From Escherichia coli (GTDB lineage Bacteria; Pseudomonadota; Gammaproteobacteria; Enterobacterales; Enterobacteriaceae): DNA of 64,000 nt. A program made the position numbers. Location of the stretch: assembly GCF_017348835.2 (NCBI RefSeq), contig NZ_CP071375.1, one strand, 5' to 3'. Position 1 is the stretch's first letter; every line of letters begins with the position of its first letter. This document shows, one piece after another, positions 49,901 to 52,900 of this stretch.

Positions 49901-52900
49901 AGAACTTCAAACGCGTTGAAAATAAAAACAAAAACCCGCCGAAGCGGGTTAAATGCGGGTGCGTTGAGAATGCCTGACACATCAGAGGTGGCGAGGGATT
50001 TCTCCCCCGCCGGGTCTCTTACTCCTCAGATTCGTAAGCTGTGAAGACAGCGACCTCCGTCTGGCCGGTTCGGATTCGTACCTCGCAGAGGTCTTTCCTC
50101 GTTACCAGTGCCGTCACTATGACGGTTAAACAGATGACGATCAGGGCGATTAACATCGCCTTTTGCTGCTTCATAGCCTGCTTCTCCTTGCCTTTCGGCA
50201 CGTAAGAGGCTAACCTACGTGTGTAGAGCATAGATATGGCCTCAGATTAATGTTAAGCGTCTTGCCGGACGCGTAATGTTAACTGGGGCTTTTCTCTATC
50301 TGCCTTTGGTGTTGATGCCCGAGGCAGATAGCCTCAAGCACCCGCAGCAATTCTACTTAACTACCGTTACCTCGCCAATATGAAATCAATCAGAAAGGTG
50401 ATCCATAAGAACAACAGCAAGACAATAAATTGCCATTACAGCAGCAATAGCCAGCGCACATTTGAGAACCAGCACCACAACCTCCTGTATTGGACGTACA
50501 CCAGTCCTGATAAATATGAGGCTGTCTCGTCAGTGATTCAATACAACTACTGGGTATAGTTTCTATGATTTTGTTCTGTGGAAATGGAAAACAGCAACCA
50601 GTCACCACCAGCACTTCTTTAAACATGCCAAGTCACACGCAAGCCAACATTATAGTTCCCTTTGAGCGAGCAGATGAAGCTAGCAAAAATATTGATCACT
50701 TAGGATGCATTACTAACGTTGCTATGTGTTAACGAACAGGGAGTGGGTCATCAGCATAAATATTTATGCAGTAGGTTTCTTTTAGGACTAGATTAATCAA
50801 AAACATTTAGATAAAATTATAAAATCAAGAAATTGGTGGCAATTAATCTTTAATTGTGCCAGCTGAATTTCGTTATTATAGAAGATTAGCTTTTTTTTGA
50901 GTGTTTGGAGAGTAAAATGTTAGAACCACCAAAGAGTTATAATGAAATGTTGCCTATGCTCCATAAGGCGACTTTTATTACTACATTTATATTTTACCTA
51001 TCATTAGTCATTTATGGCTACATGCCATTGGTTGGCATTAATGCCAAGTATATCCCCCCCGTTAAAGACTACGAGGAATTTATTAAATGGATATTAACCT
51101 TTGGCATATTACCAATTGCATCTTCAGTTTTTTGGTCAGTAATTAGTGGAGCTTTAGATCTACATAATAATGTAGCAAAAATTATTGGAATAAGGAAGAT
51201 GTGGGATAGTCATTTAATTATTAAACCATTAGCAAAAATTGCAGGCGTTACGAGAAAATTAACTACTGATGAATCTCACAAGGTAATGAGTAAACTGTAT
51301 TACCCAGAAGTTAAAGAGTTAAAAGACAAACATTACGTTGAACTTTTCTGGAACAAAGTTTATTACTTTTGGGTTTTCTTTGAACATACAGTAATCGCAT
51401 TTGTTACTATTTTAATAATAAGTATCGCCAAATTAACAAATATATTCTCTGTTACTGGCTCTTTAATTAATCTTTGGTTGTGGATTATTTCTCTTGTCGC
51501 ATTTGACTTCCTTATTTTCATAGCATCAGTTAAACCAAGAACAGAAAGCCAAGTAAGACAAATACCTGATAGCAAAATAAAAGAATTCTTTAACAATAAC
51601 AATATTTTTTAAACGAGGTTGATTTTGAATTACAAAATAAATGGAATAAACATACGTTCAGAAAATGCAGCGAAACCGCACACTATGCCATCTAACTATC
51701 TCTGTAAACAGATTGAAAGCACTAATAAAAATGGCAATGCCCTTGATTTTGGATGTGGAAAACTTAGATATTCAGAACAATTAGTAAATAAATTTGAAAC
51801 TGTGACATTTTTAGATTCCAGAAGACAACTAGAAAGAGTGCAAATTATCAGAGGTGTACAAACCACGATTCCAGATTACGTGATAAATAACTATAAGAAT
51901 GCTAATATTGTTTCTTATGAAAATATAGATAAAATAACAAATCATTATGATTTCATACTTTGCGCAAACGTGCTTTCCGCAATTCCATGTGAATCCACAA
52001 TTCACAAAGTCCTCAGTGCGATTAGAGAATTATTAAAGAGTGATGGTGAAGCACTGATTGTCAATCAATACAAAAGTTCTTATTTCAAGAGGTACGAGAG
52101 CGGTATTAAACATTTGCATGGGTATATATACCAAAACTCTCGCAATGCTTTCTACTATGGTTTATTAGATGTGGATACTGTAAGTAAAATATGCTCAGAT
52201 AATAATTTAGAAATAATAAAATCATGGAGCAAAGCAGGTAGTTCATATGTGGTTGTTGGTAAACATATACATATTTAGTTTATTTCAACAAATTATTAGA
52301 AAGAGTGATTTGCTTGTTAATTATTAGCTCGGCAGTGCCGGATCAACATGACCCTGCCACTTAGGCCATTGCCGGTTTACCTACTTTTGTAAGGTTCAGC
52401 ATGAAGTTTTTATATACTCTTCCTAATATCAATAGTGATGCTCGCTTATGTTAGCTGCTTCTTGTACATAGTAGCCTTCTCCGACAGTACTGCAATGAGC
52501 GGAGAGTAAAAGTCGATAAACAATAAGGAGGTTCACAATAAATATTTCTCGGTGAAACTTTCAAAGCATTCTCTGTTTTGCTAAATCGACAATTATAAAT
52601 CAACAACATTTAGTGTTATATCAATATTATTTAGCCTTGCAATCTCTGATGAATCACTTGCTATTTTAGCTTTTAATTTATCAATATTAATCATATCTTC
52701 ATGGCTTATATAAACCATATCACCTTGGTTAACTTTAGATTTGTTCACTATGGCTTGAATAACAGACAAATCATCCATTACACCTCTCATAAATTTCACC
52801 ATGCTTTGATCTTTGAAGTCAGATATCGATTTTGAACGTTGCTTACGTTGAATTGTTCCTTTTGTAATTACTTCATTAATTTCTTTTAAACCAGTGAGCA

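What the first reader, a model, noticed from the sequence alone, without database searches (positions are those of the whole stretch)
50232..50640. Region upstream of hok/mok lacks relBE
In Qin, relB and relE precede hokD. Here the ~400 bp upstream of mok hold no RelE or RelB-like frame, only short odd-composition ORFs. The Sok antisense RNA and the hok leader should lie in 50175-50400.
Basis: partly seen in the sequence, partly recalled or inferred. Interest (0 to 1): 0.3.

Follow-up and report, generated by a model that had tools for sequence, protein, structure and literature searches.

The report
Intact hok/sok locus, not relBE
The stretch upstream of hok holds the normal control region of an intact hok/sok toxin-antitoxin module in a Qin-like E. 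coli prophage, so the missing relBE is the usual state and K-12's relB-relE-hokD is the rearranged exception; the one new item is a conserved, mostly unannotated 29-residue membrane-peptide gene beside it.

Summary
No RelE- or RelB-like frame lies at 50232-50640 or anywhere in the 64-kb window (tblastn best E 0.085 and 0.57; 33-39 inside the region; no Pfam or NCBIfam hit).

The expectation behind it is backwards. The window carries a complete hok/sok type I module on the minus strand:
- hok promoter at 50378-50350
- hok mRNA start near 50343 and leader 50343-50175 (Rfam RF01794, 114 bits)
- mok at 50231-50019 and hok at 50174-50019
- 5'-3' fold-back pairing and a terminator at 49950-49933
- a predicted Sok gene on the plus strand, about 50222-50297, with its promoter at 50188-50216

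K-12 Qin matches the window only up to 50188. There, 2.07 kb (relE, relB, ydfV, flxA and others) replaces 5.2 kb of the window. The intact leader occurs in 4251 of 5426 complete E. coli genomes and the relE-hokD junction in 1165. The K-12 rearrangement is already published.

One is probably real: a 29-aa hydrophobic ORF (50475-50386, minus strand, AGGAGG ribosome-binding site). It sits in a 290-bp block found in 1808 genomes and is unannotated in RefSeq.

Main finding: ordinary, already known. The small ORF is a modest side result.

The parts
49923..49950 (-). Intrinsic terminator of hok mRNA (stem 49950..49933, T-run to about 49923). It also marks the downstream edge of the hok/sok module.
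   Evidence: Terminator scan. Sequence variability among 71 unique IMG/VR copies jumps from 0.03 or less to 0.25-0.48 just past 49933.
49957..49968 (-). fbi-like 3' element (CUCAACGCACCC) that pairs with the 5' end of hok mRNA.
   Evidence: The minimum-energy fold of the full-length mRNA 50343..49928 closes the 5' GGGUGCUUGAGG onto this 3' segment, z = -7.4. The tac/fbi model is described in PMC9841398.
50019..50174 (-). hok toxin gene (51 aa; differs from K-12 HokD by one nucleotide in the coding sequence, Ser49 versus Pro49).
   Evidence: ORF list; Pfam PF01848 E 2.9e-23; alignment with K-12; RefSeq name hokD in identical genomes.
50019..50231 (-). mok reading frame (70 aa, in frame with hok; GAGG ribosome-binding site at 50243..50240).
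   Evidence: ORF list; annotated as MokW in related phages.
50175..50343 (-). hok mRNA 5' leader, with a tac-like 5' end at 50343..50332. The transcription start near 50343 is inferred.
   Evidence: RF01794 at 114 bits, full model 1-157, consensus starting GGGUGCUUGA and ending AUG. G50343 lies 7 nt after the -10.
50188..50216 (+). Predicted Sok promoter (-35 TTGCCT 50188-50193, 17-nt spacer, -10 TAACCT 50211-50216).
   Evidence: Read from the sequence. Placed by analogy with the R1 Sok promoter as I recall it, so this is inference. This stretch is invariant in the 7-sequence alignment. K-12 homology ends at 50188.
50222..50297 (+). Predicted Sok antisense RNA, about 75 nt: a 5' tail over the mok start, a long hairpin at 50238-50290 and a U-rich 3' tail.
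   Evidence: Fold energy -35.1 kcal/mol, z = -4.75. The ends are inferred and were not mapped. The only variable patch within the module, 50242-50213, coincides with the predicted Sok 5' tail.
50350..50378 (-). hok promoter (-35 TTGGCG, 17-nt spacer, -10 TAGAAT).
   Evidence: Promoter scan, 9 of 12 matches. Conserved in all aligned copies.
50386..50475 (-). Small ORF: 29 aa plus stop, GTG start, MLVLKCALAIAAVMAIYCLAVVLMDHLSD. Predicted single-pass membrane peptide. Unannotated in RefSeq.
   Evidence: Intact in 104 of 106 full-length IMG/VR copies. Excess of synonymous changes in this frame only: 16 synonymous, 20 non-synonymous, 0 stops, p = 0.012. A divergent homologue with ATG and AAGGAGG lies in the same position in L040. 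Kyte-Doolittle score 2.70. Named 'putative membrane protein' in a few GenBank records.
50481..50486 (-). Ribosome-binding site AGGAGG, 5 nt before the conserved GTG of the small ORF.
   Evidence: Sequence. AGGAG is kept in all 7 aligned copies, including HannyBb, where the upstream sequence diverges.
50487..50669 (-). Conserved, indel-tolerant non-coding leader of the small-ORF block. The upstream boundary of the block is near 50669.
   Evidence: The block matches 1808 genomes at about 90%. Alignments show 14-nt, 12-nt, 6-nt and 3-nt indels. No conserved RNA structure.
50670..50904 (.). Variable, AT-rich junction at the start of a low-GC cargo island (50700-53700). It is presumably the promoter region of the plus-strand cargo genes.
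   Evidence: GC 28-35%. Homology to other prophages stops at 50650-50690. Other strains carry different cargo in this slot.

Best explanation
Window 49923-50378 is a complete hok/sok-type type I toxin-antitoxin module in the early-right (nin) region of a Qin-like lambdoid prophage. The prophage is integrated beside tRNA-Ser and mtfA. The 'region upstream of mok' is the module's own control region, not a place where relBE is missing.

By analogy with plasmid R1 hok/sok, the module would work as follows (inferred, not tested here):
1. The hok promoter (50378-50350) makes an mRNA of about 416 nt whose 5' end pairs with a 3' element. This keeps the mRNA closed, untranslatable and unable to bind Sok.
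2. Slow 3' trimming opens the mRNA and exposes the mok ribosome-binding site.
3. The short-lived Sok RNA, made from the opposite strand (about 50222-50297), binds there and triggers degradation.
4. If Sok is lost, mok translation drives hok translation, and the 51-aa Hok peptide damages the inner membrane.

K-12 Qin is the derived form. A 2.07-kb segment carrying relE, relB, ydfV, flxA and others replaced 5.2 kb. The break lies 14 nt before the hok ATG, which left hokD as the promoterless third gene of the relBEF operon.

Just upstream of the hok promoter is a separate conserved 290-bp block (50386-50669). It probably encodes a 29-aa single-pass membrane peptide transcribed in the same direction. 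Its function is unknown.
For: Shown:
- The Hok ORF is a Hok/Gef family member, with an in-frame mok ORF.
- RF01794 hits the full leader at 114 bits.
- The promoter and terminator are found by scan.
- The full-length mRNA folds with 5'-3' closure, z = -7.4.
- The Sok hairpin plus U-tail folds at z = -4.75.
- Homology to K-12 hokD ends at 50188 and resumes at 55396.
- The intact leader is in 4251 of 5426 genomes (9341 places); the relE-hokD junction is in 1165.
- The slot upstream holds different cargo in different prophages: an AbiH protein, a RelA/SpoT-domain protein, NUDIX plus HAD hydrolases, or, here, a membrane protein, a SAM methyltransferase and a SMEK-domain protein.

Literature:
- K-12 hokD was inactivated by rearrangement (PMC12214031, PMC7232551).
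- relBEF is co-transcribed (PMC3598666).
- hok is enriched in prophages (bioRxiv 10.1101/2025.08.07.668861).
- The tac/fbi mechanism is described in PMC9841398.

Small ORF.
Against: - Nothing here shows that the module is expressed or active. According to the bioRxiv Hok survey, the native chromosomal hok loci tested (hokA, hokB, hokC) did not mediate post-segregational killing.
- The Sok promoter is a weak consensus match (7 of 12) and the generic scan did not pick it up. The Sok ends are inferred.
- The Rfam 'sok' hit is on the hok sense strand, so it supports the leader and not Sok transcription directly.
- Coding evidence for the small ORF is moderate: p = 0.012 from closely related copies, and part of the ORF was constrained by my search pattern.
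Confidence: 0.9

Rival explanations
1. relBE-hokD is the ancestral arrangement, and this prophage lost relBE by deletion.
For: K-12 Qin and this prophage are close relatives: 98.3% identity across dicC-dicA-dicF-dicB. 1165 genomes carry relE-hokD.
Against: A deletion cannot create the 190-nt hok leader, Sok gene and hok promoter. These are homologous to those of other hok loci in phages and plasmids. K-12 lacks all of them, and its homology stops inside the Sok -35. The intact form is about 3.6 times more common by genome. The literature calls K-12 hokD the rearranged locus.
Confidence: 0.03
2. A highly diverged type II toxin-antitoxin pair (RelBE-like or other) is hidden among the short ORFs of 50232-50900.
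For: Several ORFs of 35-78 aa exist on both strands.
Against: There are no Pfam, NCBIfam or PHROG hits even at E up to 10. tblastn E values are 33 or worse. The 78-aa and 59-aa ORFs are broken by indels or lack conserved starts in related copies, and their frames show no excess of synonymous changes.
Confidence: 0.01
3. The 29-aa ORF is not translated. The 290-bp block is conserved only as DNA or RNA, for example as an upstream element of the hok promoter or a recombination boundary of the mosaic phage genome.
For: No experimental evidence of translation exists. RefSeq annotates nothing there. The statistical signal is modest (p = 0.012). The whole block, including its non-coding part, is about 90% conserved.
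Against: The ORF is open in 104 of 106 copies. Third codon positions vary most: 12 of 21, against 7 of 20 and 6 of 20. It is the only one of six frames with no stop-creating variants and the highest synonymous share. The L040 homologue keeps the ORF, the stop position, a canonical ATG and AAGGAGG at 68% nucleotide identity, while the 60 nt upstream are at a random 32%.
Confidence: 0.3
4. The hok/sok module looks intact but is functionally silent, like the native chromosomal hok loci tested so far.
For: Per the bioRxiv Hok survey, chromosomal hokA, hokB and hokC loci did not mediate post-segregational killing. The Sok -10 (TAACCT) is poor. The Sok hairpin carries an 18-nt insert relative to the Rfam consensus.
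Against: Every element is present and strongly conserved across about 9300 copies. That degree of conservation is hard to explain without selection.
Confidence: 0.3

Closest known systems
hok/sok (parB) of plasmid R1, the archetypal type I toxin-antitoxin
   Same: Same parts in the same order: promoter; leader with a 5' element pairing to a 3' element; mok overlapping hok; an antisense RNA promoter inside the leader pointing the other way; a terminator. A Hok/Gef toxin is present.
   Different: The module sits in a prophage nin region rather than on a plasmid. R1-type plasmid loci share only about 81% identity over about 75 nt around the hok start. The predicted Sok is longer (about 75 nt against 64 nt as I recall for R1) because of an 18-nt insert in its hairpin. 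Activity was not tested.
relB-relE-hokD (relBEF) of the E. coli K-12 Qin prophage
   Same: Nearly identical Hok protein (one coding-nucleotide difference), the same 3' UTR and terminator, the same downstream genes (rem, ydfU, Q) and the same dicA-dicB immunity region.
   Different: K-12 lacks the mok 5' part, the Sok gene, the leader and the hok promoter. There hokD is read from the relB promoter (PMC3598666). The window lacks relBE, ydfV and flxA. It carries instead the small-ORF block, a low-GC cargo island and intact replication-region genes.
hokD homologue of AIEC strain NRG857c (hok-4) and other intact chromosomal hok loci outside K-12
   Same: Described as intact loci without IS elements or rearrangement (PMC7232551). 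The window locus is of this kind.
   Different: None of substance. The window is one more copy of a very common allele: identical in at least 10 complete genomes, for example strain C7.
Small single-pass membrane peptides of E. coli and its prophages (type I toxins, or regulators such as AcrZ and MgtS)
   Same: The 29-aa ORF has the same size, one hydrophobic helix and a short charged tail.
   Different: No sequence match to any curated family. No antisense RNA or structured leader was detected. Resemblance is in shape only.

Membership tests
[quoted passage not shown] | Hok/Gef toxin ORF of about 50 aa | tested here: met
   PF01848 E 2.9e-23, 81.6 bits against a cut-off of 22. The NCBIfam Hok subfamily matches at E 1.4e-13 but below its curated cut-off when the 70-aa mok frame is used as query.
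[quoted passage not shown] | Conserved structured hok mRNA leader upstream of hok | tested here: met
   RF01794 at 114 bits against a gathering score of 59, full model, E 6e-27.
[quoted passage not shown] | mok reading frame that starts in the leader and overlaps hok | tested here: met
   70-aa ORF 50231..50019 with GAGG 8 nt upstream.
[quoted passage not shown] | Long-range 5'-3' pairing (tac/fbi) that closes the full-length mRNA | tested here: met
   The minimum-energy and centroid folds pair nt 1-12 with 49968..49957, z = -7.4. This is in silico only.
[quoted passage not shown] | Antisense Sok RNA with its own promoter, complementary to the mok translation-initiation region | tested here: inconclusive
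   A hairpin with U-tail is present on the plus strand (z = -4.75), with a TTGCCT-17-TAACCT promoter read by eye. The promoter was not called by the generic scan and no transcript data are available.
[quoted passage not shown] | Killing when Sok is depleted (post-segregational killing) | not testable with these tools
   Needs genetics.
relBE type II toxin-antitoxin | RelE/ParE-fold toxin ORF | tested here: not met
   tblastn best E 0.085 in the window and 39 in the region. No Pfam or NCBIfam hit.
relBE type II toxin-antitoxin | RelB antitoxin ORF immediately upstream of the toxin | tested here: not met
   tblastn best E 0.57 in the window and 33 in the region.
Type I toxin (for the 29-aa ORF) | Small hydrophobic peptide | tested here: met
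   GRAVY 1.86; best 19-aa Kyte-Doolittle window 2.70.
Type I toxin (for the 29-aa ORF) | Cognate antisense or divergent small RNA and a structured, translation-blocking leader | tested here: not met
   No Rfam match. Alifold energy is about 0 on both strands. No promoter-like site on the opposite strand.

The most novel reading that the evidence does not exclude
The unannotated 29-aa membrane peptide gene (50475..50386) is a working partner of the prophage hok/sok module. It ends 8 nt before the hok -35 and is inherited with hok in about 2000 E. coli prophage copies. It could be a second membrane-active peptide, or a modulator of Hok insertion or toxicity, expressed from read-through of the phage early operon. 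That would make this a three-part module rather than two unrelated neighbours.
Probability: 0.1. Interest if true: 0.45.

Novelty: already known. Interest (0 to 1): 0.15.

Why it matters
It corrects a K-12-centred expectation. In E. coli at large, the prophage 'hokD' is normally a self-contained hok/sok module with its own promoter, leader and antisense RNA. The textbook relBEF operon is a rearranged remnant. Annotation pipelines name the toxin hokD but annotate none of the RNA parts.

Two practical points follow:
- The Rfam 'sok' model hits the hok sense strand, so its strand should not be read as the direction of Sok.
- A conserved small membrane-peptide ORF next to hok goes unannotated in RefSeq in about a third of complete E. 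coli genomes. It is a cheap target for small-protein validation.

The position just upstream of this block is a cargo slot that holds different candidate defence or stress genes in different prophages. relBE is one such cargo.

Tried and rejected
I used the all-against-all representative search instead. It returned only 10 close hits, all the same peptide with arbitrary N-terminal extensions.
- Pfam, NCBIfam and PHROGs gave nothing for any short ORF in 50276-50732.
- A permissive Rfam scan of 49850-50950 gave only RF01794 plus sub-threshold noise. That noise includes isrK at 25.8 bits over the hok 3' UTR and a 19.5-bit plus-strand echo of RF01794.
- I looked for a conserved RNA structure in the 190-nt stretch upstream of the small ORF on both strands. 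There is none (alifold about 0).
- I scanned one genome per species for the small ORF. There were only 2 true hits, both identical to the window and sitting in MAGs binned as Haemophilus and 'Scatousia', probably E. coli contamination. The other 3 hits were chance matches. The ORF therefore looks confined to Escherichia and Shigella prophages.
- A full-text search for the peptide string found no paper.
- The 78-aa minus-strand ORF (50626..50390) and the 59-aa plus-strand ORF (50380..50559) were rejected as genes. Their starts are not conserved, indels break them, and their frames show no synonymous excess.
- I did not align the window to the R1 sequence itself. The placement of the Sok promoter and ends therefore rests on the Rfam alignment plus my recollection of the R1 layout.

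Full report
**Where the window comes from.** The 1.2 kb around the finding is 100% identical to several complete E. coli chromosomes, for example strain C7. In that record the region is a lambdoid prophage with this gene order: terminase, lysis genes, tRNAs, Q, rusA, a DUF968 gene, hokD, three cargo genes, a DUF977 gene, a ydaT-like gene, dicC/dicA, dicB, exonuclease, integrase. It is integrated beside tRNA-Ser and mtfA. Its immunity region (dicC, dicA, dicF, dicB) is 98.3% identical to K-12 Qin, so 'Qin-like' is fair. The integration site differs from that of Qin.

**Checking the observation.**
- hok (50174..50019, 51 aa) and an in-frame 70-aa mok frame (50231..50019) lie on the minus strand. 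Hok matches PF01848 at E 2.9e-23. So 50232-50640 is indeed upstream of mok.
- No RelE or RelB is there. None of the short ORFs hits Pfam, NCBIfam or PHROGs, even at permissive thresholds.
- A deliberately sensitive tblastn of K-12 RelE and RelB against all 64 kb gives best E values of 0.085 and 0.57 elsewhere, and 39 and 33 inside 50100-50950.

**What the region is.**
- Rfam family RF01794 ('sok') hits 50343..50169 at 114 bits over the whole model. The alignment shows that the model consensus starts GGGUGCUUGA and ends at the hok AUG. The model therefore describes the hok mRNA leader on the hok sense strand. Its strand should not be taken as the direction of Sok.
- A sigma-70-like promoter (TTGGCG, 17 nt, TAGAAT; 50378-50350) puts the transcription start at about G50343, exactly where the Rfam model begins.
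- An intrinsic terminator lies at 49950-49933.
- Folding the predicted 416-nt transcript pairs its first 12 nt with 49968..49957 near the 3' end (z = -7.4). This is the fold-back (tac/fbi) closure described for R1 hok mRNA (PMC9841398).
- On the plus strand, a TTGCCT-17-TAACCT promoter (50188-50216, read by eye) precedes a strong hairpin (50238-50290) with a U-rich tail (z = -4.75). This is the predicted Sok RNA, about 75 nt, complementary to the mok ribosome-binding site and start codon.
- Among 71 unique related copies from viral contigs, the module is almost invariant apart from one patch, 50242-50213. That patch is the predicted Sok 5' tail and its target. Conservation collapses just past the terminator.
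- The unit shared with unrelated phages and plasmids is about 49925-50363. The module is thus well delimited and complete.

**Why K-12 differs.**
- Direct alignment shows K-12 hokD matching the window from the downstream rem gene through hok and its ribosome-binding site. The match ends abruptly at window 50188, 14 nt before the hok ATG and at the first base of the Sok -35.
- Homology resumes only at 55396. In between, K-12 has 2.07 kb (relE, relB, ydfV, flxA, ydfW, part of ydfX) where the window has 5.2 kb.
- K-12 hokD therefore has no mok start, no Sok, no leader and no promoter of its own. It is co-transcribed with relBE (PMC3598666).
- This is already in the literature. K-12 hokD is listed as inactivated by genomic rearrangement, lacking canonical TA components (Pedersen & Gerdes 1999, as cited in PMC12214031 and PMC7232551). 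hokD homologues elsewhere are described as intact (PMC7232551). hok genes are known to be enriched in prophages (bioRxiv 10.1101/2025.08.07.668861).
- Counts in 5426 complete E. coli genomes agree. The intact leader is in 4251 genomes (9341 places). The relE-hokD junction is in 1165.

**The rest of the interval.**
- From 50386 to about 50669 lies a 290-bp block that matches 1808 genomes at about 90%. All 30 listed matches have no annotated feature.
- Upstream of the block, prophages differ completely. The slot between the DUF977 gene and this block holds different cargo in different strains: an AbiH protein, a RelA/SpoT-domain protein, NUDIX plus HAD hydrolases, or two hypothetical proteins.
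- In the window the slot holds a 28-35% GC island with a membrane protein, a SAM methyltransferase and a SMEK-domain protein.
- relBE in K-12 is best seen as one more cargo of this slot, with a deletion running into the hok leader.

**A probable small gene.** Inside the block, on the hok strand, is an ORF ending 8 nt before the hok -35.
- *Start site.* The first codon listed by the ORF finder varies among copies. The second, a GTG at 50475, is invariant and lies 5 nt after AGGAGG. That gives 29 aa: MLVLKCALAIAAVMAIYCLAVVLMDHLSD.
- *Integrity.* The ORF is intact in 104 of 106 full-length viral-contig copies.
- *Substitution pattern.* Outside the codons fixed by my search pattern, variable sites number 7, 6 and 12 at codon positions 1, 2 and 3. 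Distinct variants are 16 synonymous, 20 non-synonymous and 0 stops (p = 0.012 against random expectation). The other five frames give lower synonymous shares, and four of them acquire stops.
- *Divergent homologue.* Locus L040 has ATG, AAGGAGG and the same stop position (MSDDILLAMEGALAVVAVMAIYCLVVFLIDRRGG), again just upstream of a hok promoter. The ORF is 68% identical at the nucleotide level, while the 60 nt before it are at 32%.
- *Predicted topology.* The peptide is predicted to be one membrane helix with a short acidic tail.
- *Database status.* The 1.8-billion-protein representative library holds only close copies with arbitrary N-terminal extensions. A few GenBank records call it 'putative membrane protein'. 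No curated family and no paper contains it.
- *Neighbouring sequence.* The 190 nt upstream tolerate indels and have no conserved RNA fold. No antisense RNA is evident. I would therefore not call it a type I toxin.
- *Without hok.* In eight copies the hok locus downstream has decayed while the ORF persists.

I rate it probably (about 0.65) a real phage small-membrane-protein gene of unknown function.

**Verdict.** The interpretation rests on taking K-12 as the reference. The scientific interest of the finding itself is low. The by-products are modest: the unannotated small ORF, the strand issue in RF01794, the hypervariable Sok-target patch, and the cargo slot.

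Noticed in passing
window 50169-50343 (minus strand): The Rfam RF01794 'sok antitoxin' model matches the hok sense strand. 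Its consensus starts at the hok mRNA 5' end and ends at the hok AUG. The family is effectively a hok-leader model, so the strand of its hits is opposite to Sok.
   Followed up: yes
window 50213-50242: This is the only variable patch in an otherwise near-invariant hok/sok module (minor-allele fraction 0.14-0.22 against 0.06 or less elsewhere). It coincides with the mok start and the predicted 5' tail of Sok. That would fit diversification of Sok-target specificity among the 2-10 hok copies per genome.
   Followed up: partly
window 50700-53700: A low-GC (28-35%) cargo island sits between the hok block and the DUF977 gene. It holds a 231-aa membrane protein (50917-51612, +), a SAM methyltransferase (51619-52278, +) and a SMEK_N-domain protein (53492-52593, -) that matches a PADLOC 'Aga_REase-PNTD' model at 1.4e-20. 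It may be a defence cargo. Other prophages carry AbiH, RelA/SpoT-domain or NUDIX+HAD genes in the same slot.
   Followed up: partly
L040 7600-8020 (minus strand; IMGVR_UViG_2778261453_000015): In this phage contig the hok leader is cut after about 110 nt by a C5 cytosine methyltransferase gene. This is a second, independent case of cargo truncating a hok locus. A further small hydrophobic ORF (MSWPDAFAIVGITMAIAIIVYSICRWL) lies just upstream of the small-ORF homologue. It overlaps the stop of the preceding gene, which suggests an operon of tiny membrane peptides.
   Followed up: partly
window 50029-50037 (minus strand): Hok Tyr47 is encoded by TAC within a UACG motif. The literature reports low-level A-to-I editing of the equivalent Tyr codon in K-12 hokD to Cys (PMC12214031). 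The motif is conserved here.
   Followed up: no
window 49929-50010 (minus strand): A sub-threshold Rfam match to isrK (25.8 bits against a gathering score of 50) covers the hok 3' UTR and terminator. It is probably only a shared terminator-like shape.
   Followed up: no
L129 and L133 (MAG contigs labelled Haemophilus sp. and Candidatus Scatousia): Short contigs carrying sequence identical to window 50370-50500. These are almost certainly E. coli prophage DNA mis-binned into unrelated MAGs.
   Followed up: partly
window 42612-42728, 45681-45853, 57423-57474: Other Rfam hits in the window: an ALIL pseudoknot (IS3-family frameshift signal), STnc100 downstream of Q, and DicF in the immunity region. 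All fit a lambdoid prophage carrying an IS element.
   Followed up: no
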